Shown one piece after another: positions 8,650-39,654 of a stretch of DNA of 64,000 nt (its first letter is position 1; every line of letters begins with the position of its first letter). Location of the stretch: the IMG/VR virus record IMGVR_UViG_2778261559_000013; one strand, 5' to 3'. A model generated the notes under the pieces. That model was not told the origin of the DNA, made no database searches, and saw only the letters and a list, made by a program, of their open reading frames with translations. Made by a program: the position numbers and the translations under genes. Source of the stretch: a virus. Lineage: Duplodnaviria > Heunggongvirae > Uroviricota > Caudoviricetes.

Positions 8650-8947
8650 AATCGCAGCGCCATTAGGCGGAGATGCCATTATCGAATTTGATGATAATGA
8701 AGAAGTTTCCGGGCGTTTAAGCATTATCTCCGGTGACATTACCGAGGACATGATCGCTGAAGCCATAGCTGGGGCAAATCCCAATAGCTATATGGGATTC
8801 GTTAACACCCTTGATGCTCCCGCAAGTGATGTTCTCCGAACGCTGCATCTTTACGCTGGCTGGTTTGTTGATTGGCCAGCAGTAGAGGGTGGCGATGAGG
8901 ACGACGACGATGATTTGGGTGATCATGTGGATCAGTTTGTATATTAG
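8639..8947 (+). CDS. small acidic protein, 102 aa, last gene of the dar operon
   Basis: Start overlaps the end of the 995-aa gene; C-terminal DEDDDDD tract. Confidence 0.45.
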   Translation: MQIKIAAPLGGDAIIEFDDNEEVSGRLSIISGDITEDMIAEAIAGANPNSYMGFVNTLDAPASDVLRTLHLYAGWFVDWPAVEGGDEDDDDDLGDHVDQFVY

Positions 8948-9153
8948 ATACTAACAGATCGTCTATGTGGCTAGAATCGTTCGAGTTTAGCGATTAACGG
9001 AAGTTCTGGTCGATTATGATTAGTGCATATTCATGCACAGGCACACAAAATCTGGAGATATTGATCAGCGTTTATGTATAGTTTGTAATATAAAAATCGC
9101 CTTGAACGGAGTTTGTGCGTTATGAGAATCAATCTTAACTCTGGAGTAAGATA

Positions 9154-9522
9154 GTGGACGCTTTGTCTGAGGTTTTCGTTAATAATTGGCTTCCTGGTAT
9201 CTGCACATTTTTTTTAGGTATCTTTTATTCTAATATTGTTGAAAAAAAGAAACTTAAACAGAAGTTAAAGAATGATATTCTTGAGATATTCATTCCTGTA
9301 TTTAACGCCGGAAATGAAATCTCCATTGAAATTGCTGAGAATGCTTACAGGAATATGAATGGTACGTTTCAGTTGTACAAGAGAATATATCCAGGTATGT
9401 TCAACAAAGAAGCAGAGCGTGAGCTAGACCGACTACTAAAAGACGGTTTCCTCATAAATGGAGAGGTTAATAAGCATTACTTTGAACCAACTAATATTGA
9501 GAGCCTGATTAAAAGATTATAA
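9154..9522 (+). CDS. hypothetical membrane protein, 122 aa (low-GC cargo)
   Basis: GTG start 6 nt after GGAGTAAG; N-terminal TM helix (LPGICTFFLGIFYSNIV); AT-rich codon usage unlike the flanking phage genes; followed by an intrinsic terminator. Confidence 0.45.
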   Translation: MDALSEVFVNNWLPGICTFFLGIFYSNIVEKKKLKQKLKNDILEIFIPVFNAGNEISIEIAENAYRNMNGTFQLYKRIYPGMFNKEAERELDRLLKDGFLINGEVNKHYFEPTNIESLIKRL

Positions 9523-9540
9523 CTCATTTACCACAGTTAA

Positions 9541-9565
9541 AACCCCGCTTCATTGCGGGGTTTGC
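9541..9565 (+). terminator. rho-independent terminator after the 122-aa gene
   Basis: ccccgc-ttcatt-gcgggg stem-loop followed by ttt. Confidence 0.5.
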
Positions 9566-9729
9566 ATCATGCGCCAATAAAAGCTATTTATTCTGCGTCA
9601 AGTTGTAACATCTAATCCACTATTATATATCGTTATGTTTGGCATATAACAGATAATTAAATGAATTATATCCAGATCTAATTTTATGCGGTTCTGGAAC
9701 CCGGCTACGTACTATATAATAGAAAAAAA

Positions 9730-11085
9730 TCAGAGTCTATCAAAAATAGAGCCTTTTCTCGGTACAAATATTTTCTCATACAGTCGAGTAGCGTAATCAT
9801 CTGTCATGCCTGAAACATAGTCGCAAATGACGCGCATTTTTTTATCATCACCTTTTGCTTCCTCTTGATTATATTTCTTTCGAGTTTCTGTCGGGAGAAA
9901 ACGTATTGGGTCATTTGCCAGTACATTGAATAGTTCCACAATCAGTTTCTGACCTTTGAACTCTAATAGTTGGACGTTTTCGTGCTGAATAACTTTGTTC
10001 CTAACCAGCTCAAAAATGGCTTTACGTAACTCTTCTACCGCGGCAGGAAGTGCCACTTTATAGCGTAAAATTTTACTTTTGAAATCAGAGTTCTGCACTT
10101 CAAGCTTAACGCTAGTGATCATCAGATGAACAAGTGTCCCTATGCACTCCTTGCGTAGATAACTTTCGCCGAACAGTTTTTCAGCTACATCATCGGCTTT
10201 TAGATTAAACGAGTCGCATTGGCAAGCTGCAAATAAATGGGATTTGTCCTCGAAGTGCTCCTCCCACATTTTTTTGTCGATCATCTTCAGAGAAATTGCG
10301 TCTTCAAGATCATGGAGTGAGTAGGATATCTCATCAGCCAAGTCCATAATCGTTGTATCCAGTGCTTTATATATTGTTTCCTTGTGCTTATTCAACGCGG
10401 TAGATTTTACCGTTTTGAATAACTTAACATCATCACTATCAAAAGGTTGGAGTGCGAATCTAACAGTGTTCTCCTCAGAGTCCAGGTAACATTTCGGGGG
10501 CTTAAATTCGGATGATTTAAACAACCACTCATTGCTTCTTGGCTGTAACTGGCTGTAAGCCCTCTCATTGACGACCTCTGAATAGCTTGCTGGATATTTC
10601 AGTACGCCTAAAATAAGTCTACGGGTGGGATCCAGCCCATTGGTTTCGGTGTACTTATCCAGTTTGGAGAGTATACGCAGTGTCTGCCCGTTACCTTCAA
10701 AGCCGCCATAGGATCTCATGCAGTAGTTTAGTGCGACCTCACCACCATGACCGAAGGGGGGATGTCCTATATCATGAGCAAGGCAGATAGCCTGCATCAG
10801 GCTTGGGTCAGGTAAGAATTTACCCCCCTCATCTGTATCGCGCTTAGACAACTGAGACAAGATACCGCCGCCAATTTGCGCTACTTCCATAGAGTGAGTT
10901 AGACGCGTACGGTAGAAATCGCTTTCGCCCAATCCCAACACCTGCGTCTTCGATTGTAATCTCCTAAAAGCGGAAGAGTGGATTAACCGGGAAAGATCAC
11001 GTTCATACTCCGACCTTATCTCATTCGGGCGGGTGGTATTGTACCCTTGACGCTCATACCAAGTATTTTCTTTGCAGTGTGTCAT
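9730..11085 (-). CDS. dGTP triphosphohydrolase (Dgt family, HD domain), 451 aa
   Basis: RTRLTHSMEVAQIGG and AICLAHDIGHPPFGHGGE are the Dgt-family HD motifs. Start set at ATG 11083-11085 (MTHCKENTWYERQ...), preceded by AAGGAA; the track ORF extends 33 codons further upstream. Confidence 0.85.
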   Translation of the reverse strand: MTHCKENTWYERQGYNTTRPNEIRSEYERDLSRLIHSSAFRRLQSKTQVLGLGESDFYRTRLTHSMEVAQIGGGILSQLSKRDTDEGGKFLPDPSLMQAICLAHDIGHPPFGHGGEVALNYCMRSYGGFEGNGQTLRILSKLDKYTETNGLDPTRRLILGVLKYPASYSEVVNERAYSQLQPRSNEWLFKSSEFKPPKCYLDSEENTVRFALQPFDSDDVKLFKTVKSTALNKHKETIYKALDTTIMDLADEISYSLHDLEDAISLKMIDKKMWEEHFEDKSHLFAACQCDSFNLKADDVAEKLFGESYLRKECIGTLVHLMITSVKLEVQNSDFKSKILRYKVALPAAVEELRKAIFELVRNKVIQHENVQLLEFKGQKLIVELFNVLANDPIRFLPTETRKKYNQEEAKGDDKKMRVICDYVSGMTDDYATRLYEKIFVPRKGSIFDRL

Positions 11086-11261
11086 ACGTGTTCCTTTGGG
11101 CAGGATAGAGCAAGTCGCCTGCTTAATTGCTGAAGAAAGAAATACAAATTTGTAACGCTGTGGATCTTCTTTATGCGTCCACAATCAGTAAATATTGGAT
11201 ACTTGCAAGGTGCGCGAAACACTAAAGATTGTCAATTAATAATTAACACCTCTTATAGTTA

Positions 11262-11293
11262 CTAGAAATAAAAATCCCCTGTATTAACAGGGG
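11262..11293 (-). terminator. rho-independent terminator downstream of ssb
   Basis: cccctgt-atta-acagggg stem followed on the minus strand by a U-rich run (AUUUUUAUUU). Confidence 0.5.
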
Positions 11294-11333
11294 CCTGTGT
11301 ATGAACTATTTACAAATAACTCACAAGTTAACT

Positions 11334-11822
11334 CTAAAACGGAATATCGTCGTCAAAGTCCATTGGAGGTTCGTTATTGGCGCTGCTCTGAGGTTTGCCG
11401 CCACCGCTGTATTGCTGGTGGTTTTGAGGTTGGTTTGATTGCCCCCAGCCATTTGAGGACTGTGAATCGTCGCGGCGGGCGCCGATCATTTGCATAGTTC
11501 CGCCCTGGCTGACGATAATTTCCGTCGTGTAACGTTCTACACCGGCGTCATCTGTCCACTTACGGGTTTTAAGTTTCCCTTCGATGTAGACCTGAGAACC
11601 TTTTCGTAAATACTCACTCGCAATTTCAGCAAGTTTCCCGAACAAAACGACTCTATGCCATTCTGTTTGCTCTTTCTGTTGGCCCGTTTGCTTGTCGCGC
11701 CATGATTCATTCGTTGCGATGCTGAGTCTTCCGACCGCTCCGCCATTTGGTATATACCTGATCTCCGGGTCTTGCCCCAGGGTACCAATCAGGATGACTT
11801 TGTTTACACCGCGTTGTGCCAC
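11334..11822 (-). CDS. ssb: single-stranded DNA-binding protein, 162 aa
   Basis: (M)[22 protein letters not shown]...[35 protein letters not shown]...C-terminal DDDIPF is near-identical in pattern to E. coli SSB. GTG start. Confidence 0.92.
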
Positions 11823-22880: not shown

Positions 22881-23125
22881 AAAAGCGATACTACACAGTA
22901 AAGCATGGGACGCTACGAGCATTACAAGAGTTTGCTGACAAGCATAACGTTGAGGTGCGCAGGGAAGGGGGAAGTAAAGCTCTGCGCATGTACCGTCCGG
23001 ACGGGAAATGGCGTACAGTCGTCGATTTCAAAACAAACAGTGTTCCCCAGGGCGTCCGCGACCGGGCATTCGAAGAATGGGAGCAGATCATCATAGATAA
23101 TGCATTGCTTCTCAATGCTGATTGA
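22877..23125 (+). CDS. Lxc-like small protein, 82 aa (by position)
   Basis: ATGA overlap with the upstream gene. Name by synteny only. Confidence 0.4.
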   Translation: MKKRYYTVKHGTLRALQEFADKHNVEVRREGGSKALRMYRPDGKWRTVVDFKTNSVPQGVRDRAFEEWEQIIIDNALLLNAD

Positions 23126-23207
23126 GTTTTGTTGGCCCGGTTTGCACCGGGCGTTTCACAAACAATCAACTGGTTTGTAGTTCCTGCGGCGAGATGAATT
23201 ATTAATA

Positions 23208-23816
23208 TTATCGTGGTGCCGATGATGCGATAGCCTGTATGATGTTATCAATATCGTTATCGTTCAGCATGAATATAGGTACACCATTAGAGTTTGCATT
23301 TTTTTCAGTGCTCATCAAACAAAGCCCCTCATACATGCCGCGAGTTTTTTTGAAATTGGCGACTGATGGAGTGGTGTAATTTCCTTTAAAGTGCATTCCG
23401 GCTGATTCATAAAAAGGAACCAAATCAGACTGGCAAATCAAAGCGACCTCATTTGGAAATGCAAGTATTTCTGCCAGTATATTACTTCCAAGTCCATTAC
23501 CACGATATTGCTCATATACATATATTTTATGACAGTACAACGGAAAATTTCCCGATGGATGTCCGAAGATTAAAGCGTATCCGAACAAGTTTTCTTCATT
23601 AGTAAAGCCCATAATGCGCAAATGACCGGCTCGGTAACACTCTTCAAAAACGTTAATTATGTAGCTTCTCGCTGCTTTCAGCTCCTCTTCTGTCGGGAAC
23701 ATCATCAACCCCATAAGCGATGGAGTATAGGCCAGATCCTGAAGAATCCCATTAGCTTCATTTTCGAAAATTAGCGGTAAGTGCGGTACAATTTCATTTG
23801 CCGAGGTATTAGACAT
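23208..23816 (-). CDS. GNAT-family N-acetyltransferase, 202 aa (low-GC cargo)
   Basis: GNAT motif A YVYEQYRGNGLGSNILAE and motif B-like LICQSDLVPFYESAGM; AT-rich; own upstream palindrome and terminator context. Confidence 0.75.
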   Translation of the reverse strand: MSNTSANEIVPHLPLIFENEANGILQDLAYTPSLMGLMMFPTEEELKAARSYIINVFEECYRAGHLRIMGFTNEENLFGYALIFGHPSGNFPLYCHKIYVYEQYRGNGLGSNILAEILAFPNEVALICQSDLVPFYESAGMHFKGNYTTPSVANFKKTRGMYEGLCLMSTEKNANSNGVPIFMLNDNDIDNIIQAIASSAPR

Positions 23817-23824
23817 AGTATGGT

Positions 23825-23848
23825 GAGTCCTTTGTTTTCAAAGGACTC
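23825..23848. promoter_or_regulatory. perfect 10-bp inverted repeat (gagtcctttg-tttt-caaaggactc) over the presumptive SD, 9 nt upstream of the GNAT start
   Basis: Seen directly. On the mRNA the AAGGA Shine-Dalgarno lies in the right arm of the hairpin. Confidence 0.4.
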
Positions 23849-23959
23849 ATGTTATCAGTGATAATCGTTTGTTGTAATAGTGTTGATAAAATAATTTTCT
23901 ATTATGTAAGCAAGCTCATTTTTATGACGGGTAATGCAAAAAAAATAGAATCAAAAAAC

Positions 23960-24003
23960 TAAAAAATAATAATTCATGGGGTTTTACACCATCAAAAGTC
24001 CCC
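23960..24003 (-). terminator. rho-independent terminator after the 213-aa gene
   Basis: Minus strand: GGGGAC-UUUUGAUGGUGU-AAAACCCC hairpin followed by a U-rich run. Confidence 0.45.
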
Positions 24004-24014
24004 ACTATAAATTA

Positions 24015-24656
24015 TTAGAAATAATTATGCTTGCCTGTTAATACCCCTTTCGGCACTTTTTTTTGTTCCAGTGTCTGGGTACCCAGAATTATGTTAATAA
24101 GTGGACTTAGTAACGATGGTTCCTGGCGGGCTTCAACTTCTCCAGCCATTGCCCTGATGTAGTCGGCGCTGGCAACGTTGTTGTATTCCGTCGCAAAGCA
24201 ACATAGTAACGTCAGAACATGCTCTGTCGTTATTTCGCTCCAGTTGATGTTGAAAAATTCATCGCCTTTTTTATCGTGTTCGGAATCGAAGATGCTTTGG
24301 TGAAGGATGTATTTGCCGGATTCCTTGCGCGGTAACTTGATCGCTTTCTGGCGTTCCAATTCCTTGTAAATCTGCATTGCTTCAATCAGTACCGGTCTGC
24401 CGTTCATGAAGGGATCACGCAACCTTACACGCTGGCCAACTCGACCGGTAATAAAGCTGTTTTCCTCTTCCACCAGCACGATAAAACCCTTTTCCTCTTT
24501 TTCTCGCAATTCGCGCAGCAGCTGGAGTTCCATATCGCGGCGGCGTTCAGGGTAGCTGGTCCGCTCAGCCATTATCAGCTCATTGTTGATCCATGCAGCA
24601 GTCATTGACGCCGGTTTGCCGACGCTCATTGAAACAACGCATATTTTCTTATCCAT
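24015..24656 (-). CDS. hypothetical protein, 213 aa (low-GC cargo, upstream of the GNAT gene)
   Basis: Start set at the ATG at 24654-24656 (MDKKICVVSMSVGKPASM...). No motif I recognise. Confidence 0.55.
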   Translation of the reverse strand: MDKKICVVSMSVGKPASMTAAWINNELIMAERTSYPERRRDMELQLLRELREKEEKGFIVLVEEENSFITGRVGQRVRLRDPFMNGRPVLIEAMQIYKELERQKAIKLPRKESGKYILHQSIFDSEHDKKGDEFFNINWSEITTEHVLTLLCCFATEYNNVASADYIRAMAGEVEARQEPSLLSPLINIILGTQTLEQKKVPKGVLTGKHNYF

Positions 24657-33519: not shown

Positions 33520-34875
33520 GAACGGGCAAGCAATCAGCAAACAACCGCCGAGAACCCTCGCCCAATGCGGGCGGGGAGGAAAGGCGGGAAAGCCCACAGG
33601 GCTTTAAAAAAAAATCATTACGGTGTTAGCATAAAAACCTGTATCAATGAGCGGTGACTATGTTAAGAGCGACAAAAGTACGCATCTATCCAACCACTAA
33701 ACAGGCTGAGTATCTCAACGCCCAGTTCGGCGCCGTGCGTTTTGCGTACAACAAAGCTCTTCACATCAAAAAACACGCTTACCAGCGACACGGAGTGAAT
33801 TTAAGTCCGCGTAAAGATTTAAAACCGTTGTTGTCTGTGGCGAAGAAGTCCCGTAAGTATGCCTGGCTTAAAGAATTTGATTCAATGGCATTGCAACAGG
33901 CGGTGATTAATCTTGATGTGGCGTTTTCCAACTTTTTTAATCCGAAGCTGAAAGCCCGGTTCCCGACGTTTAAACGTAAACATGGGAAACAATCGAGCTA
34001 CCATTGTGTCGGGATTAAAGTACTGGAGAATGCCATCAAAATTCCTAAGCTGGCACCGATAGAAGCGCGTATACACCGTGTAATGACGGGAAAAGTGACG
34101 AGCATAACAATCACTCGCAGTGCCACCGGGAAATACTACGCATCCATCCTTTGTGAAGACGGTATTCCCACACCAGCGAAACCTGCGTATCTGGAGGAAG
34201 AAAAGATTACTGGTGTGGATATGGGACTTGAGCACTATGCCATCAGGTCTGACCGGGCAAAAATTGCGAATCCCCGCCATCTCATCAATGCCAGCCGTAA
34301 TCTGCGACGCAAACAAAAAGCGCTATCCCGCAAGCAAAAGGGAAGCGCGAATCGTAAAAAGGCCAGAATCCGTCTTGCGGCCATACACGAACGGGTAGCG
34401 AATGCCCGTGCTGATTTTCAACATAAACTTTCTCGTACAATTGTTGACGAAAACCAAGCGGTAATTGTCGAGACGCTGAAAACAGCCAACATGATGAAAA
34501 ACCACAATCTGGCAAGAGCAATAGGTGATGCAGGCTGGCATAGCTTCATCACAAAGCTGGAGTACAAGGCAGCGGAAAAAGGCGTTCACCTGGTAAAACT
34601 CGACCAGTGGTTTGCCAGTTCGAAAACGTGCCATTGTTGTGGTTACAAAATGCCGGAAATGCCGCTTCATAAACGCATCTGGCGATGCCCTGAATGTGAA
34701 GCAGAGCATGACCGCGATATCAATGCGGCACTCAACATCCGGCAAAAAGGGATACTGGAACTAAAGGCGGCGGGACTCGTCGTCTCTGCCCATGGAGGCC
34801 AGCGTAAATCCGTCGTACAGACGGTTGCGGCCTGAGATGTGGGAAGCCTCGCCCAACCGGGCGGGGAGCAGTCAC
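33520..34875 (+). mobile_element. IS200/IS605-family insertion sequence carrying tnpB only
   Basis: TnpB ORF flanked by related subterminal hairpins: left cctcgcccaatgcgggcgggga (~33556-33578), right cctcgcccaaccgggcgggga (~34847-34868). Ends are approximate. Confidence 0.6.
33654..34835 (+). CDS. tnpB: TnpB (OrfB) RuvC-like RNA-guided endonuclease, 393 aa
   Basis: OrfB N-terminus MLRATKVRIYPTTKQAEYLNAQFGAVRFAYNKAL; C-terminal zinc finger CHCCGYKMPEMPLHKRIWRCPECEAEHDRDINAALNI. Confidence 0.85.
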   Translation: MTMLRATKVRIYPTTKQAEYLNAQFGAVRFAYNKALHIKKHAYQRHGVNLSPRKDLKPLLSVAKKSRKYAWLKEFDSMALQQAVINLDVAFSNFFNPKLKARFPTFKRKHGKQSSYHCVGIKVLENAIKIPKLAPIEARIHRVMTGKVTSITITRSATGKYYASILCEDGIPTPAKPAYLEEEKITGVDMGLEHYAIRSDRAKIANPRHLINASRNLRRKQKALSRKQKGSANRKKARIRLAAIHERVANARADFQHKLSRTIVDENQAVIVETLKTANMMKNHNLARAIGDAGWHSFITKLEYKAAEKGVHLVKLDQWFASSKTCHCCGYKMPEMPLHKRIWRCPECEAEHDRDINAALNIRQKGILELKAAGLVVSAHGGQRKSVVQTVAA

Positions 34876-35412: not shown

Positions 35413-36456
35413 TTATCTAACACTCGACGAGTGACTTGTGATAGCGCCGACTCCAAGCGCGTAATCAAAGAACAATCGTTGATGCATCGCCAGCCTACCG
35501 TGCGTCTTCTCCCAATTATCGCGGTCACGCTCAATATCACGCTGGCATGACTGGCACAGAGGAATTGCGTAAATGTCATGCGCGCATAATCGACTATGAC
35601 GAACGATATAAGGCGTAATGTGAGCGCCAGCTCCCGCAGCTCCACACCCACAGCATGGACGGGAAGCAACAAAGTCCATGTACTCAGGTAATTTTAGCGA
35701 TTGCAGTTTTGGTATTTTGAAATGCGCCATGCCAGGGTCGGAGTCAACATCCACAGGGCATACTTTTGCACGCATCGGCGCGGCGCGTTCTTCCATCATC
35801 TGAACATATGCTGTAGCGCGATCGTCATACGGGCGAATATCCGCCTCTTTCATAGGTCCGCTATCCTGCGTTGCAGCCTTAATCTTATTTATTGATATAC
35901 GGCAGACTTCTTCCGGCATCAGGTGCATCATGTCGCGCATGAAAGCCCACCAGCACAGTTCCTGAATACTTAAATCATGGCCATCTGAAAGCCCCATTTC
36001 CTGACGGGCGACATCCAGTATCCAGTTAACGCGATTATTATGCAGCGTTTCTTTCAGCTCATTAAAACTACGCATCCGGTAATGGTTATCGTGATGCCAG
36101 CACAACAACACCGCGCTATTGTCTCGTTCTGCGTGGACAATATGGTTGTCACACCAGCTACGATCTGCGGCCTGGCATTTCCCCTCTTTCCTGCGCAACC
36201 ACGCCACCAGCGCGTCAATTCCACCAATACGGCGAAACAGTTCATCGCTGTTAAAAAACGGCTGCAACGCCTCATTTGTTGCCATAGTTTGCTCGGAAAC
36301 AACGAGGCCGTCGTCCATGTGCTCGATTAACTCACGCGGCACCGGCTCCATAATAAATTTACGGCCAGCCTCCACCAGCTTTCTGACTTCCTGATCCACT
36401 TTGAATGTGGCGACGCCAAGCTCTTTTTGTACAAAGGGAGTAATTACGGCTTTCAC
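35413..36456 (-). CDS. hypothetical protein with C-terminal Cys/His cluster, 347 aa
   Basis: ...[43 protein letters not shown] suggests a zinc-binding, possibly HNH-like, module. Confidence 0.5.
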
Positions 36457-36483
36457 ATCACACCTTTCATCACTGATTGGGCT

Positions 36484-36684
36484 TTATCTGCTGCCCGGCA
36501 TTCTCTGTTTAAGCACAACCATTTCCTGACGGCATAACACAGCAATAGCAGTCCTGGCTCCAATTTGCTTACCAACCAGGTATTGCTTTACCTCGCGGCG
36601 ACTCACGCCATCAAGAAGCATCTTTAACGCTTCACGGGACAATTTGTTGTATTTGCGTGCCATTAATCTACTCCGCAGAACCAT
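36484..36684 (-). CDS. small basic protein, 66 aa, immediately downstream of doc
   Basis: ORF only. Confidence 0.3.
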
Positions 36685-37048
36685 ACAATCTACGTAACGT
36701 GTCGGCGACAGAAGATACAGATATCTCGCCAGTCGCAGCCCCTACAGTAAGGTCTGCCAGTTCAGGTGAATCAAATACCTGCACCCCGTTACGGCGTAGA
36801 AATAGCAGCGCGCTGTTTAGCGCGGTACGCTTATTGGCATCATTGAATATATGCCCTCTCGCTGTAGCCACTAGGTAGGTGGCGGAGACTTCGAAAAGGT
36901 CGGTGATCTCTTCGTAGGCAACTCTGGCCTGAACTCTCCCGATAATGGCTTCTGCCCTGCCCGGATCTGACATGCCCGGCAGGCCGCCGTAGCGGCTTAT
37001 ATTCGCATCATGAAGCGCAATAAGTTCTTCCGGTGATATATGCCTCAT
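36668..37048 (-). CDS. doc: Doc toxin (Fic-fold kinase), 126 aa
   Basis: [40 protein letters not shown]...[23 protein letters not shown] contains the Fic-type HxFx(D/N)xNKR motif; matches P1 Doc. Confidence 0.95.
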
Positions 37049-37269
37049 TATCGGTTAACCAGTTCCTTGTTAGTGGAGTCCAGAGTGTCAAACAGGGATG
37101 CAAATTCGGCATCCAGCGCCGCTTTTTTATAGGCTTCGAAAGTGGCCTTGCTGACAATTACGGCTGATTCACGGCCTCTGCGGGTGATTTCAACCTCTTC
37201 CCCTGCTTCGACATTATTGAGCACTTCGCTAAGGTTGCCGCGTGCGGTACGGAAGTTAATGGATTGCAT
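37048..37269 (-). CDS. phd: Phd antitoxin, 73 aa
   Basis: [73 protein letters not shown]; overlaps the doc start. Confidence 0.95.
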
Positions 37270-37278
37270 AAACACCTC

Positions 37279-37300
37279 GTGTACTCGTTATGTGTACACA
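37279..37300. promoter_or_regulatory. phd-doc promoter/operator palindromes (GTGTAC ... TGTGTACACA)
   Basis: Palindromic GTGTACAC elements 10-30 bp upstream of the phd start. Confidence 0.5.
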
Positions 37301-37413
37301 ATTATAAACTTCACAAGCATAAAGCACCAGCACTTTGCAGCTTAAATCACCGGACAATCGTCAAACTCCCCACTTCGGGCATCATTGATGAAATGATGTG
37401 GTCACACCAAACT

Positions 37414-37878
37414 TTAATCTTCAAGGTCTGCTTCTGATACCACTGTATAACCCAGAAATATTTTAATCTCATCCCACAATCCCATGATCTTGCCTTCATA
37501 CTCTGATGGTTCTCTTACAATTACTGAATCTGGGGGAGAGTGAGCCTCTAATTCGGTTATGATCTCATGGCAAAGATTATGTTTGTAATATTGTTTTAGT
37601 TGCTCTCGAATAGGTTTTGGCGCACTTTCAATAGTTTCTTTTGCGGCATTTAGTGAAAGAATTATATTACTTGCGTCATTAACATCCCAGTCTGATCCAG
37701 CTTTTCCTGTTGCTATTTTATTTGCCCTATCAGCAAAGTTTATCAATGCTTCACTATAAAATTTTTCCTTATCGAATAATCCAAGCTTTTTACTTGTGCG
37801 CAAACTAATAAAAGCAGCTATTGCTGACCCAAATGCCGCAATAGCTGATGCCCAATCGGGATTGATATGAAGAAACAT
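37414..37878 (-). CDS. hypothetical membrane-anchored protein, 154 aa (low-GC cargo next to phd-doc)
   Basis: N-terminal TM helix (WASAIAAFGSAIAAFISL); AT-rich; no recognisable motif. It sits where I would expect a UmuD-like gene in P1 but is not UmuD-like. Confidence 0.5.
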   Translation of the reverse strand: MFLHINPDWASAIAAFGSAIAAFISLRTSKKLGLFDKEKFYSEALINFADRANKIATGKAGSDWDVNDASNIILSLNAAKETIESAPKPIREQLKQYYKHNLCHEIITELEAHSPPDSVIVREPSEYEGKIMGLWDEIKIFLGYTVVSEADLED

Positions 37879-38085
37879 GCTATCTCTACCTAATGCCAGA
37901 TCTTTAACCTAGAAATATTGTATCAGTAGTTATGGCTTTGCCACCAGTAATGCGATTTTTTCCTAGTTGTCATTGCCCCCTACCAGCGGCAATAAAGCCC
38001 TGGCCATCTTATGAACCAATAGTGCATCAATAATGCCAAGCGTATGCCCCGGGTTAATGTTTAATGCCGCCTCAAGGTGACACCT

Positions 38086-38568
38086 TTACAGGCCACTTTT
38101 CTCGGCTTGTTTATGATGATCTGGCGTAATAACGTCGCCCAAAACACGGCTAATTCTTTCTCGTAATTGCTGGGTGCCAGCACACTTGATAGCTGTATCG
38201 TGGAGACGGTTAACCAGTTCGCGGTAAACATGCGGCTTAATTCGTATACGTTCGCCGGGGACGCCATTTCCTGGCGCTTGCTCCGAACTATCCGGATAGT
38301 TGCCAGCCTCGTAAGCTACCCGCAACCAGTGCATGAATGTTTCAGTGGACACACAACCACAGTCCACATCGATTTTTCCGCGTTGCTGTTCCAGCCACTG
38401 CTCAAAATTCAATCTACATGTATTACTTTCATGTTGCTCTTTTTGTCTCAAGGCCAGCATCTGCTGGGCTATTTCCAATACTTTATCTGCCGTATATCCA
38501 GCACCGTGACCATACATTTCAATACGGGCGATAATCTCCGATATGCGTTCTTCAGTGATTCTGGTCAT
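38086..38568 (-). CDS. hypothetical phage protein, 160 aa
   Basis: ORF with coding-like composition in a co-directional gene block. Confidence 0.5.
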   Translation of the reverse strand: MTRITEERISEIIARIEMYGHGAGYTADKVLEIAQQMLALRQKEQHESNTCRLNFEQWLEQQRGKIDVDCGCVSTETFMHWLRVAYEAGNYPDSSEQAPGNGVPGERIRIKPHVYRELVNRLHDTAIKCAGTQQLRERISRVLGDVITPDHHKQAEKSGL

Positions 38569-38924
38569 TTCTTTTCACATTCCTTAGTCCATTTTTCAAT
38601 GTTTATTTTGGCAATATCAGTCATTCCATCACCTAAGAAATACTTTTTCCGGTATGCCTTGCACTTAAACCACACTACAACAGCCACCAGCCAAAAAATA
38701 AAAGGCCATACAGCAACACCAACGACAGCCGCGATAAAGCCCAATAGCCATAAATGAAGCTCTCCAACTTCTGTTTGCGGCAATATTCTTAAAGAATTAA
38801 ACAGCAGGCTGAACGAATGGTCGTATGCATTGGCGGTATAAGACATGCAATCCATATAATTAAAGTTATAGCCTGCGGCTGCCGCCCATAATGGGCGGTC
38901 AAGAAAATGTTTGAATGTCATCAT
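38565..38924 (-). CDS. hypothetical membrane protein, 119 aa
   Basis: Two hydrophobic segments; stop overlaps the downstream gene start. Confidence 0.45.
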   Translation of the reverse strand: MMTFKHFLDRPLWAAAAGYNFNYMDCMSYTANAYDHSFSLLFNSLRILPQTEVGELHLWLLGFIAAVVGVAVWPFIFWLVAVVVWFKCKAYRKKYFLGDGMTDIAKINIEKWTKECEKK

Positions 38925-38930
38925 ATGAAT

Positions 38931-39311
38931 TTAAGGTTCAGACCAGTTATCTTCAATAGCAATGCTTAATCTTTGTAGCCATTCTGCTAATTTCAGCATT
39001 GCTTCTCTTTCGCTTAAACCACGAGGAAAATCATCAAGCGAAATTGTTGGCTTGAAGCCACCGTAATTATCCATTTCAACGGTCAGATTTTGCTCCAGCA
39101 CGGTATTCCTTACGCGGCTATTGTGTCGGAGCAAATATACTGAGCGTGATTTATTGGTTTTGTGGTCGAAATGATATTCGGTAAGTATCATCTGGCTTCT
39201 GCCATGACTATTACCTCTCCACATACTTACCTCACTTAATAAAACAACTCCATACGTAGTTGATGATTTTTCCCCACGTAATATAAATATGCACTCCAGC
39301 AGAAAAACCAA
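38931..39311 (-). CDS. hypothetical protein, 126 aa
   Basis: ORF in the co-directional block. Confidence 0.4.
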   Translation of the reverse strand: MVFLLECIFILRGEKSSTTYGVVLLSEVSMWRGNSHGRSQMILTEYHFDHKTNKSRSVYLLRHNSRVRNTVLEQNLTVEMDNYGGFKPTISLDDFPRGLSEREAMLKLAEWLQRLSIAIEDNWSEP

Positions 39312-39402
39312 AACCTACAATTACTGAAAAAATCAAAACATTTACTTTTGACATTATAAAATTTCTCTCGTTGTCGTAGGTGATAGCACCATAATTGATA
39401 AT

Positions 39403-39654
39403 TTAGTGAGTTAGCAGTTCCATTTTTTGGATGATTTCCGCATGAGCATCATCGTTGTCAACACTTAGCTCATTTAATGCTTCTCGCACTACATCAACTT
39501 CTTCTGGTTGGAAGAAATCATCTCGGTAGTCACCAAATAGAACCGAAACAAGCCTGCCACCAGCAACATCAAGATTGGCGCTAACAGGTGGCTCTTTACC
39601 ATCCTCAAATTCAACAACAAAAGTTAATTTTCCCATCGTTACCACCAGCGACAA
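39403..39654 (-). CDS. hypothetical protein, 83 aa
   Basis: ORF in the co-directional block. Confidence 0.35.
   Translation of the reverse strand: MSLVVTMGKLTFVVEFEDGKEPPVSANLDVAGGRLVSVLFGDYRDDFFQPEEVDVVREALNELSVDNDDAHAEIIQKMELLTH

What the first reader, a model, noticed from the sequence alone, without database searches (positions are those of the whole stretch)
37276..38085. Orphan AT-rich gene for a 154-aa membrane-anchored protein immediately upstream of phd-doc
A single gene with a different base composition from its neighbours, an N-terminal TM helix, a soluble C-terminal domain with no recognisable motif, and its own promoter region. It occupies the position where I would expect a UmuD-like gene in P1 but is not UmuD-like. 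Single-gene membrane proteins at phage accessory sites are frequently superinfection-exclusion or abortive-infection factors.
Basis: inference. Interest (0 to 1): 0.5.

Follow-up and report, generated by a model that had tools for sequence, protein, structure and literature searches.

The report
Uncharacterised membrane-anchored phage accessory gene
A real but uncharacterised small gene, carried on a 570-base AT-rich cassette that replaced the DNA-repair gene humD in a rare lineage of P1-like plasmid-prophages, encodes a probably membrane-tethered helical protein whose only relatives sit in cargo slots of lambda-like prophages; its function (possibly phage exclusion) is untested.

Summary
Window 37414-37878 (-) is an intact 154-aa ORF with GC 0.37 and GC3 0.25, against about 0.50 in its neighbours. 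It lies on a 570-bp cassette (37412-37981) directly upstream of phd-doc. Relative to P1, the cassette replaces humD-lxr-hot-upfONM-pmgV; only the last ~22 humD codons remain (37342-37411).

It is not a true orphan. It matches PHROG 1779 (function unknown) over its full length, E 5e-63. About 25-45 distant clusters (25-41% identity) exist, all in lambdoid prophages of Enterobacterales, in accessory slots (replication genes to ninB; RecT to int).

Across the family there is one N-terminal Ala/Gly/Ser-rich hydrophobic helix, and the flanking charges indicate N-out/C-in topology. An all-alpha bundle follows (AlphaFold pLDDT 85). It has no Pfam, NCBIfam or PADLOC match and no meaningful structural neighbour.

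The P1 version is rare: 10 of 5,426 complete E. coli genomes, always on P1-like plasmids. The site is the documented P1 "variable region 8".

Function stays inferred. My best guess, about 0.35, is a membrane-tethered phage-interference factor. An early-lytic accessory role is nearly as likely. This is a new member of a known kind, of modest interest.

The parts
37414..37878 (-). Protein-coding gene, 154 aa (identical or 99% identical to WP_001697568.1-type 'hypothetical protein'); member of PHROG 1779
   Evidence: ORF. Full-length PHROG 1779 match, E 4.7e-63. 21 clusters found by exhaustive phmmer and 25 by profile search. Intact in all P1-like copies examined.
37801..37854 (-). Codons 9-26: Ala/Gly/Ser-rich hydrophobic helix (WASAIAAFGSAIAAFISL), predicted single transmembrane anchor, N-out/C-in
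   Evidence: Hydropathy. Across 37 family members there are 7 K/R in the N-flanks against 103 in the C-flanks. Positions 11, 14, 15, 17, 18, 19, 21, 22 and 25 are 100% small residues, and A22 and S25 are invariant. The AlphaFold helix spans residues 7-56.
37412..37981 (.). 570-bp AT-rich cassette (GC 0.375) absent from P1, P7, D6 and most P1-like plasmids; same breakpoints against P1, D6 and pRHB09-C18_2
   Evidence: blastn breakpoints. Present in 9 PLSDB plasmids and in 10 of 5,426 E. coli genomes, all on plasmids. In L017 the cassette is identical while the right flank carries 8 SNPs.
37917..37944 (-). Sigma-70 promoter-like site GTGGCA-16 nt-TACAAT with TG extended -10, 39 nt upstream of the ATG
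   Evidence: Consensus scan; the count is not above chance. No P1 C1 operator, Lpa -22 box or LexA box lies within the 200 nt upstream.
37342..37411 (-). Remnant of humD (last ~22 codons plus stop, with an in-frame stop codon), left by the replacement
   Evidence: blastn and tblastn against P1; translations.
37301..37330 (-). Region corresponding to P1's annotated Pphd promoter; no terminator lies between the ORF stop and this promoter
   Evidence: P1 annotation transferred through the alignment; terminator scan.
36668..37269 (-). phd (37048-37269) and doc (36668-37048) toxin-antitoxin genes, conserved P1 backbone
   Evidence: Pfam PhdYeFM_antitox 2.5e-13 and Fic/DOC 3.1e-9; 97% identical to P1.
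38086..38568 (-). Upstream neighbour: 160-aa mosaic gene whose C-terminal 77 aa are 83% identical to P1 PmgT; its stop is at the P1 pmgT stop position
   Evidence: tblastn; blastn 37982-38314 against the P1 pmgT/pmgU 3' region.

Best explanation
What it is (confidence about 0.9). This is a genuine accessory gene, a divergent, plasmid-prophage-borne member of a small temperate-phage family of Enterobacterales (PHROG 1779). It arrived on a 570-bp AT-rich cassette. In a rare lineage of P1-like plasmids that cassette replaced the humD-lxr-hot-upfONM-pmgV segment of the known 'variable region 8', immediately upstream of phd-doc.

How it most likely works (inferred, about 0.35).
- The 9-residue acidic N-terminus is translocated and residues ~9-26 span the inner membrane (N-out/C-in).
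- That helix is built almost entirely of invariant small residues in small-xxx-small register, with bulky residues at 3-4 spacing. This is the signature of a helix that packs against other helices, so the protein probably self-associates in the membrane.
- The ~120-residue cytoplasmic domain is an all-alpha bundle. Its conserved positions are hydrophobic or structural (W64, N53, F98, L102, W135, F141), not catalytic, and it ends in a conserved acidic D-L-x-D tail. It is therefore most likely a binding module.
- I propose that the protein is a membrane-tethered interference factor. It would be made from its own sigma-70 promoter in cells carrying the plasmid. At the cytoplasmic face of the inner membrane it would either block genome entry or establishment of other phages, or, on binding a phage product, let its TM helices perturb the membrane (abortive infection).

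Shown: the gene, the family, the cassette and its breakpoints, the rarity, the topology signals, the fold class, and the absence of known domains. Inferred: membrane insertion, oligomerisation, expression in the lysogen, and the anti-phage role.
For: - Real gene and family.
- Cassette and replacement of humD. The site is one of eight documented variable, low-GC regions of P1-like phage-plasmids (PMC9603915).
- Foreign composition. Homologues are also AT-poorer than their flanks, 0.41-0.45 against 0.49-0.53.
- Topology and small-residue TM helix. A 288-aa family member (P0012) carries three additional predicted TM segments upstream, in an arrangement that again puts the domain in the cytoplasm (my reading).
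- Fold: pLDDT 85.2, pTM 0.72, all-helical.
- Every family context is a cargo slot of a lambdoid prophage. The ren-ninB slot holds interchangeable cargo, including PD-lambda-1, an acyltransferase with a lipoprotein, and emrE-ybcK-ybcLM.
- The gene has no conserved partner gene, so it acts alone.
- There is a promoter-like site with an extended -10 and no C1, Lpa or LexA signals. That is consistent with expression independent of the P1 lytic programme.
- A second variable region of this window carries a bona fide defence gene, dGTPase, PADLOC E 5e-149.
- Phage D6 carries an unrelated protein of the same architecture in the same phd-upstream slot.
Against: - There is no similarity to any known defence or exclusion protein: PADLOC none, the only PHROG hit is of unknown function, and Pfam and NCBIfam give none.
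- In lambdoid prophages the gene is always co-oriented with the early lytic operons, once 13 bp behind a theta/hot-like gene, and has no consistent promoter of its own. That fits early-lytic expression at least as well as expression in the lysogen.
- In the window there is no terminator after the gene.
- The hydrophobic helix of this particular member is marginal for membrane insertion (KD19 1.49).
- This member lacks the family's nearly invariant juxtamembrane L-x-L-Q segment, through a 7-residue deletion.
- The few SNPs among P1-like copies are 4 non-synonymous to 1 synonymous. That is too few to show purifying selection.
Confidence: 0.35

Rival explanations
1. Early-lytic accessory factor. 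The protein is made as part of the phage early programme (N-antiterminated pR/pL operons in lambdoid phages; read-through from the pmgT-side genes in the P1-like plasmid). It tethers or modulates a host or phage cytoplasmic protein at the membrane, for host takeover, replication or recombination support, counter-defence, or T4 Imm-like exclusion during lytic growth. It does not act in the lysogen.
For: - It is co-oriented with the early operon in all contexts seen.
- The gap after a DNA_pol3_theta (hot-like) gene is 13 bp in L025/L026.
- Its neighbours are nin-type or repair-type early genes: NinB, RusA, DinI, RecT, DUF551, Ea22.
- No promoter-like site lies upstream in L006, L014 or L004.
- In the window it is co-oriented with DUF551/Ea22-like early-type genes upstream.
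- It has no defence-database hit.
Against: - The cassette is of foreign composition, flanked by 100-250 bp gaps on both sides in most loci, whereas the surrounding genes overlap.
- A strong intrinsic terminator lies directly after the gene, and a terminator-like site just before it, in Cronobacter prophages.
- The window has a promoter-like site with an extended -10 and no Lpa late-promoter box.
- The gene is dispensable, being absent from nearly all P1-like and lambdoid genomes.
Confidence: 0.3
2. Selectively neutral passenger. The cassette arrived by illegitimate or short-homology recombination that deleted humD-pmgV. In P1-like plasmids the gene is simply carried along next to the strongly retained phd-doc module and contributes nothing to fitness there.
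For: - It is rare: 9 PLSDB plasmids and 10 of 5,426 genomes.
- All copies are nearly identical, which fits recent spread.
- SNPs run 4 non-synonymous to 1 synonymous.
- The conserved juxtamembrane L-x-L-Q segment is missing.
- There is no terminator and no demonstrable regulation.
Against: - The ORF is intact in all 13 or more copies, from E. coli, E. albertii and E. marmotae and from several continents and sources.
- All other family-invariant residues are retained (A22, S25, W64, N53 and others).
- The model is confident.
- The family as a whole is clearly under protein-level constraint at 25-40% identity.
- The cassette is identical on backbones whose flanks differ (L017), which suggests that it spreads.
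Confidence: 0.17
3. Membrane-lesion or lysis-timing protein (holin/antiholin-like or toxin-like). The small-residue TM helix oligomerises into a pore and the cytoplasmic domain gates it, acting in lysis control or as a toxic element linked to phd-doc.
For: The TM helix, rich in small-xxx-small motifs, is the most conserved part of the protein. Established knowledge links glycine/alanine-zipper TM helices to channel-forming oligomers. In the window the gene sits next to a toxin-antitoxin module.
Against: - No holin or toxin family is hit in Pfam or PHROGs.
- In lambdoid phages the gene is far from the lysis cassette, which is complete without it.
- It is never linked to phd-doc outside the P1 cassette.
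- It has a single TM helix with only marginal hydrophobicity.
- There is no adjacent antitoxin-like partner.
Confidence: 0.08
4. Soluble protein. The N-terminal Ala-rich helix is not a membrane anchor but an amphipathic or coiled-coil oligomerisation helix of a cytoplasmic protein.
For: The 19-residue hydropathy of this member is below the classical 1.6 threshold. Bulky residues follow a 3-4 heptad-like spacing (sequence). AlphaFold draws one continuous helix 7-56 with low confidence at the N-terminus.
Against: - The stretch of 17-19 residues has no charged residue in any of the 37 sequences. It is flanked by W/acidic residues on one side and K/R on the other, a 7 to 103 charge asymmetry.
- Homologues score 1.6-2.5 on hydropathy.
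- One member is fused behind three further hydrophobic segments.
Confidence: 0.1

Closest known systems
PHROG 1779 (phage protein family, function unknown) and its lambdoid-prophage members (e.g. XSB42084.1 of Escherichia phage PhiR26_1; Cronobacter, Klebsiella, Enterobacter, Citrobacter prophage proteins)
   Same: Full-length profile match (E 4.7e-63). Same length class (154-173 aa). Same N-terminal small-residue hydrophobic helix, invariant W64, RAN and DW-x-x-x-A-N-I motifs, and acidic D-L-x-D C-terminus. Also a single-gene cargo of a temperate phage.
   Different: Only 25-41% identical to any other member. Carried on a P1-like plasmid-prophage rather than an integrated lambdoid prophage. 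Lacks the nearly invariant juxtamembrane L-x-L-Q segment. No family member has a known function.
P1 HumD (UmuD' homologue, Peptidase_S24) - the gene normally at this position
   Same: Same position directly upstream of Pphd/phd-doc, and same strand.
   Different: No sequence or fold relationship. HumD is a soluble S24 beta-fold protein under LexA control. Here only its last ~22 codons survive, and the LexA box is gone.
HK97 gp15 moron (YebO-like inner-membrane superinfection-exclusion protein; PMC3594210)
   Same: A small single gene of deviating GC content inserted in a temperate-phage genome, with a predicted inner-membrane protein as product.
   Different: No sequence similarity (no YebO or PHROG hit). 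gp15 has its own promoter and terminator and is known to be expressed from the prophage. Here the promoter is only a consensus match and there is no terminator. Function untested.
P22 SieA (inner-membrane exclusion protein, 162-164 aa; PMC10883804)
   Same: Similar size, inner-membrane location predicted, prophage accessory gene.
   Different: SieA has three predicted TM segments and a conserved FxRYPxEAxxFNK motif (PMC10883804). This protein has one hydrophobic segment and no such motif (sequence). No homology.
D6 orf109 (ASR76410.1, PHROG 7512, unknown function)
   Same: Sits in the same slot, immediately upstream of phd, in plasmid-prophage D6. 140 aa, with an N-terminal hydrophobic segment followed by a helical soluble part.
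   Different: No detectable homology (hhalign probability 0.8%). In D6, humD is retained next to it.

Membership tests
PHROG 1779 (uncharacterised phage protein family) | Significant full-length match to the family HMM | tested here: met
   E 4.7e-63, 213 bits, residues 1-154 on profile positions 1-169 of 169.
PHROG 1779 / family defined here by alignments A1 and A2 | N-terminal small-residue hydrophobic helix with invariant A22 and S25; invariant W64; conserved N53, F98, L102, W135, F141 | tested here: met
   All are present in the window protein.
PHROG 1779 / family defined here by alignments A1 and A2 | Juxtamembrane L-x-L-Q segment (Q in at least 90% of members) | tested here: not met
   The window protein has a 7-residue deletion at this place.
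UmuD/HumD (Peptidase_S24) | S24 peptidase domain | tested here: not met
   No PF00717 hit even at E <= 1. Only a 17-22 codon humD remnant lies downstream, outside the ORF.
Moron (independent transcription unit added to a phage genome; definition quoted in PMC3594210) | [quoted passage not shown] | tested here: met
   GC 0.37 and GC3 0.25, against about 0.50.
Moron | Own promoter | tested here: inconclusive
   One consensus match with an extended -10 at 37944-37917 (-). The count of such matches is not above shuffles. Homologue loci are inconsistent.
Moron | Own terminator | tested here: not met
   No terminator-like site lies between the stop (37414) and Pphd. A clear terminator does follow the Cronobacter homologues.
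Moron | Present in some and absent from otherwise closely related genomes | tested here: met
   Present in 9 of about 1,131 PLSDB plasmids that share the flank, and in 10 of 5,426 E. coli genomes. It is, however, a replacement (570 bp for about 2.4 kb of P1), not a pure addition.
Known anti-phage defence systems (PADLOC-DB 2.0.0) | Match to any defence-protein HMM | tested here: not met
   No family at E <= 1. Databases newer than 2023 were not available.
Superinfection-exclusion proteins (SieA, SieB, Imm, Sp, Sim, Cor, gp15/YebO) | Sequence homology to a characterised exclusion protein | tested here: not met
   The only PHROG hit at E <= 1 is the unknown-function family 1779. There is no Pfam hit. 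The SieA motif FxRYPxEAxxFNK is absent from the sequence.
Superinfection-exclusion / abortive-infection proteins (functional class) | Reduces productive infection by another phage when expressed | not testable with these tools
   Requires cloning and phage challenge.
Bitopic inner-membrane protein, N-out/C-in | Uncharged hydrophobic stretch of at least 17 residues with positive-inside charge bias | tested here: met
   Residues 10-26 are uncharged. K/R in the flanks is 0 against 5 in this protein and 7 against 103 across the family. Hydropathy is marginal for this member. No dedicated TM predictor was available and no experiment was done.
Holins | Match to a holin family, or a location in a lysis cassette | tested here: not met
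   No Pfam or PHROG holin hit. Homologues lie outside complete lysis cassettes.

The most novel reading that the evidence does not exclude
PHROG 1779 would be a previously unrecognised single-gene anti-phage system. It would be a bitopic inner-membrane protein whose cytoplasmic helical domain senses an incoming phage component. Its alanine/glycine-zipper TM helix would then either block genome entry or collapse the membrane. Its lambdoid form is present in about 3% of E. coli genomes (181 of 5,426), and a lineage of P1-like plasmid-prophages has captured it at the expense of humD.
Probability: 0.3. Interest if true: 0.55.

Novelty: new member of a known kind. Interest (0 to 1): 0.3.

Why it matters
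If the gene does interfere with other phages, it would add a very small (about 0.5 kb) single-gene system to the prophage-encoded defence repertoire. It would also give PHROG 1779 a function; that family occurs in about 3% of E. coli genomes and in Klebsiella, Enterobacter, Citrobacter and Cronobacter prophages.

It also shows how the P1 'variable region 8' exchanges SOS and repair cargo (humD, hot, lxr) for cargo of lambdoid origin.

As it stands, this is an ordinary uncharacterised accessory gene. Its value is as a well-delimited, easily cloned candidate, not as a surprise.

Tried and rejected
- Word-index homology search with the single protein found only its own cluster. Exhaustive phmmer and a profile search were needed to find relatives.
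- tblastn against 50,697 phage records found only two homologues.
- Pfam, NCBIfam and PADLOC gave nothing above noise.
- PDB sequence-profile search: best E 0.62.
- The search for related loci with the family alignment failed because no stretch was conserved enough. With the single protein it returned only P1-like contigs.
- Rfam on 36000-39500: only one chance-level match, E 0.98.
- A search of the 200 nt upstream for the P1 C1 operator, the Lpa late-promoter -22 box and a LexA box found none.
- Tested whether D6 orf109, which occupies the same slot, is a remote homologue: it is not.
- Considered that the conserved sequence directly downstream of the lambdoid homologues belongs to the cassette. 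Rejected: it is phage backbone upstream of ninB and is present in phages that lack the gene.
- Literature searches for WP_001697568, PhiR26_1 and phrog_1779 returned nothing.
- I first misread the humD remnant frame (the ORF at 37347-37499 is another frame). This was corrected by translation.
Full report
**1. The observation**

The interval 37276-38085 contains one long ORF, 37414..37878 on the minus strand (154 aa, ATG start).
- It is markedly AT-rich: GC 0.37 and GC3 0.25. By comparison phd is 0.49/0.53, doc 0.53/0.51, pdcB 0.50/0.52, and the window 0.48.
- Immediately downstream on the same strand are phd (PhdYeFM, E 2.5e-13) and doc (Fic/DOC, E 3.1e-9).
- The ORF list starts phd at the GTG at 37275. 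Comparison with P1 puts the real start at the ATG at 37269.

**2. What was replaced**

The window is a P1-like plasmid-prophage, in reverse orientation relative to the P1 record.
- Against P1, homology runs from lpa through pdcB, pdcA, doc, phd and Pphd up to window 37411. It resumes at 37982 with the 3' end of pmgT/pmgU.
- The 570 bp between (37412-37981, GC 0.375) have no counterpart in P1, P7, D6 or any other phage record.
- They take the place of about 2.4 kb of P1: most of humD, its LexA box, lxr, hot, upfO/N/M and pmgV.
- None of these genes is elsewhere in the 64-kb window.
- Only the last ~22 codons of humD survive, at 37342-37411. They contain an in-frame stop.
- The breakpoints are the same against D6 and against the closest humD-containing relative, pRHB09-C18_2.
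- The ORF's stop codon ends two bases from the left breakpoint.

The site is 'region 8' (pmgT to humD), one of eight highly variable, low-GC regions described for P1-like phage-plasmids (PMC9603915).

**3. Distribution**

The whole 810-bp interval occurs at 99.5% identity or more in 9 PLSDB plasmids of 93-99 kb. They come from E. coli, E. albertii and E. marmotae, and from poultry meat, veal, cattle, human blood, an estuary and freshwater.
- About 1,100 other plasmids share only the humD-3'/Pphd flank.
- The cassette is in 10 of 5,426 complete E. coli genomes, always on a plasmid and once per genome. It is also in four IMG/VR contigs.
- The ORF is intact in every copy examined. The few SNPs are K31N, Q93K, S114T, D136N and one synonymous change.
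- In one contig the cassette is identical while the adjacent 100 bp carry 8 SNPs. That marks 37982 as a recombination boundary.

**4. Homology**

There is no hit in Pfam, NCBIfam or PADLOC. The protein matches PHROG 1779, annotated 'unknown function', over its full length (E 4.7e-63).
- A word-based search found only its own cluster.
- Exhaustive phmmer over 1.84 billion representatives found 21 clusters, E down to 4.5e-15, 29-41% identity.
- A profile search found 25 clusters, all from Enterobacterales and all named 'hypothetical'.

The alignments show a coherent family of 153-173 residues with these features:
- a short acidic N-terminus;
- a hydrophobic helix S-A-[IV]-[AG]-[GA]-x-A-[SA]-A-x-A-A-x-x-S;
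- a basic juxtamembrane segment;
- then E-x-L-x3-A-x-R-A-N, G-x-D-W-x-F-x2-A-A-N-I (W64 invariant), K-x-Y-F-x2-Q-L, P-P-D and W-x5-F-F;
- in most members, a terminal D-L-x-D.

The window protein keeps all of these except the L-x-L-Q juxtamembrane segment, where it has a 7-residue deletion. 'Orphan' is therefore too strong, although nothing in the family has been characterised. Literature searches gave nothing.

**5. Genomic contexts of the relatives**

Every relative examined lies in a lambdoid prophage and is co-oriented with an early operon. There are two kinds of position.
- Between the replication genes (O/P, ren, Rha) and ninB:
  - E. coli phages PhiR26_1 and PhiR5_1. In PhiR26_1, PD-lambda-1 lies two annotated genes upstream, about 1.7 kb away and on the opposite strand.
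  - Klebsiella and Enterobacter.
  - A set in which the gene starts 13 bp after a theta/hot-like gene, with DUF551 genes upstream.
  - Another next to DinI, RusA and a DUF968 protein.
- At the distal end of the pL operon, between RecT/exo and xis/int, in Cronobacter.

No neighbouring gene is conserved across these contexts, so this is a single-gene unit.

The sequence directly downstream of the nin-region copies is phage backbone, present in phages that lack the gene. In those phages the slot carries other cargo: emrE-ybcK-ybcL-ybcM, or an acyltransferase plus an outer-membrane lipoprotein.

The lambdoid E. coli version is in 181 of 5,426 complete genomes, always chromosomal.

Homologues are also lower in GC than their flanks. 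Evidence for independent transcription is mixed. Cronobacter copies have a clear terminator 18 nt after the stop and a terminator-like site just upstream. No consistent promoter match is seen in the homologue loci.

**6. The protein**

Hydrophobic helix:
- Residues 9-26 (WASAIAAFGSAIAAFISL) are uncharged. Mean Kyte-Doolittle hydropathy is 1.49 over 19 residues and 1.92 over 17. The equivalent segments of homologues score 1.6-2.5.
- Across 37 sequences the 15 residues before the segment hold 7 K/R in total and the 15 after hold 103. By the positive-inside rule this gives N-out/C-in, with the soluble domain in the cytoplasm.
- A 288-aa member carries three additional hydrophobic segments upstream. 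Their loop charges lead to the same orientation (my reading).
- The helix is the best-conserved part of the protein. Positions 11, 14, 15, 17, 18, 19, 21, 22 and 25 are small residues in all sequences, and A22 and S25 are invariant. Bulky residues recur with 3-4 spacing.
- By established knowledge of small-xxx-small/glycine-zipper motifs, such a pattern indicates specific helix-helix packing rather than a passive anchor.

Soluble domain:
- AlphaFold2 with the 37-sequence alignment gives a confident all-alpha model: pLDDT 85.2, pTM 0.72, and above 93 for residues 40-110.
- One long helix spans residues 7-56. Helices 66-85, 88-101, 104-111 and 126-142 follow.
- Foldseek against PDB and BFVD gives nothing below E 0.3. 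A PDB profile search gives E 0.62.
- Conserved residues in the domain are hydrophobic or structural. There is no conserved catalytic-type constellation, so a binding role is more likely than an enzymatic one (inference).

**7. Regulation in the window**

- The 207 bp between the PmgT-like gene's stop (38086) and the ATG contain a weak terminator-like hairpin (38052-38036) and one sigma-70-like site, GTGGCA-16-TACAAT preceded by TG (37944-37917). The number of such matches is not above shuffled expectation.
- Using P1's own annotated sites as references, I found no C1 operator (best 11 of 17), no Lpa -22 box with a -10 in register, and no LexA box.
- No terminator separates the gene from Pphd, so transcripts could continue into phd-doc.

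Whether the gene is expressed in the lysogen is therefore open.

**8. Interpretation**

The secure part (about 0.9):
- It is a real, horizontally acquired, single-gene accessory cassette.
- It encodes a member of PHROG 1779.
- The product is very probably a bitopic inner-membrane protein with a cytoplasmic helical domain.
- It sits in a known variable region of P1-like plasmids, where it displaced humD and its neighbours.

The functional part is inference.
- I rank a membrane-tethered phage-interference role first (about 0.35). It could be an entry or establishment block, or an abortive membrane perturbation triggered through the cytoplasmic domain. Three things favour it: the cargo-slot contexts, the single-gene autonomy, and the presence of a genuine defence gene (dGTPase, PADLOC 5e-149) in another variable region of the same element.
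- An early-lytic accessory role is almost as likely (about 0.30), given the strict co-orientation and the tight coupling to early genes in lambdoid phages.
- A neutral-passenger status in P1-like plasmids (about 0.17) and a holin- or toxin-like role (about 0.08) cannot be excluded.
- Separately, on architecture rather than function, there is about a 0.1 chance that the N-terminal helix is not a membrane anchor.

**9. Comparison with known systems**

It works, at most, like the classical small inner-membrane exclusion proteins (HK97 gp15, P22 SieA, T4 Imm), but it is a member of none of them.
- There is no homology.
- It has one hydrophobic segment where SieA has three, and it lacks SieA's motif (PMC10883804).
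- Of the defining features of a moron (PMC3594210), deviating GC and patchy presence are met, an own promoter is inconclusive, and an own terminator is not met in the window.
- Phage D6 carries an unrelated protein with the same architecture in the same phd-upstream slot. That points to recurrent recruitment of small anchored proteins there.

**10. Verdict**

The finding is a new (plasmid-prophage) member of an already catalogued but uncharacterised phage family. It is a clean candidate for a phage-challenge experiment, not a surprising finding. Interest 0.3.

Noticed in passing
window 9730-11184 (-): A 484-aa HD + HD_assoc protein matches the PADLOC dGTPase defence model (E 5.1e-149). It lies where P1 has isaA-IS1-isaB; window 8946-11336 has no P1 homology. 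This is a known anti-phage gene in another P1 variable region of this element.
   Followed up: partly
window 33537-34868 (ORF 33654-34835, +): A 1.3-kb insertion relative to P1, exactly between lpa and the LPpac/pacA region. It encodes a 393-aa TnpB-like protein (HTH_OrfB_IS605, OrfB_IS605, Cas12f1-like TNB) with strong PADLOC Cas12f hits. It is probably a stand-alone IS605-family tnpB element sitting between the late-gene activator and the packaging genes.
   Followed up: partly
window 23123-24070 (ORF 23208-23816, -): The roughly 6.3-kb P1 res-mod (EcoPI) region with IS5 is absent. About 0.95 kb encoding a 202-aa GNAT acetyltransferase-like protein replaces it.
   Followed up: no
window 38086-38088, against pS51_2 (L002 4188-4847): The PmgT-like gene ends at the P1 pmgT stop position in the window. 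In pS51_2 a single A>C change removes that stop, and the annotated CDS runs 123 bp further, into the promoter region of the 154-aa gene.
   Followed up: partly
L003 1731-2153 (-) (phage D6 orf109): In D6 the slot directly upstream of phd holds an unrelated 140-aa protein (PHROG 7512). It also has an N-terminal hydrophobic segment and a helical remainder, so it is analogous cargo at the same junction.
   Followed up: partly
L015 3226-3510 (-) (pRHB09-C18_2): The closest humD-containing relative has a 94-aa ORF between the pmgT-like gene and humD that is annotated 'antitoxin PHD'. It looks like a coiled-coil plus Cys-rich protein, not a Phd, so it may be misannotated.
   Followed up: no
L025/L026 4730-5483: In some lambdoid prophages the family gene starts 13 bp after a DNA polymerase III theta (hot-like) gene and follows DUF551 genes. 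hot, DUF551 and Ea22-like genes are also the neighbours in the P1 variable region. This suggests that P1 region 8 and the lambdoid nin region exchange the same pool of early accessory genes.
   Followed up: partly
window 38565-38924 (-) and 38931-39311 (-): Two further AT-rich small genes lie just upstream (119 aa, PHROG 2638, with a central hydrophobic stretch; and 126 aa). They have no Pfam or PADLOC hit. GC in 38550-39450 is about 0.34-0.41.
   Followed up: no
L010 6481-7176: In Klebsiella prophages about 700 bp without called genes follow the family gene. They contain a direct repeat (AGCTTTCAAGAACAGATGCGTG, twice). This was not examined further.
   Followed up: no
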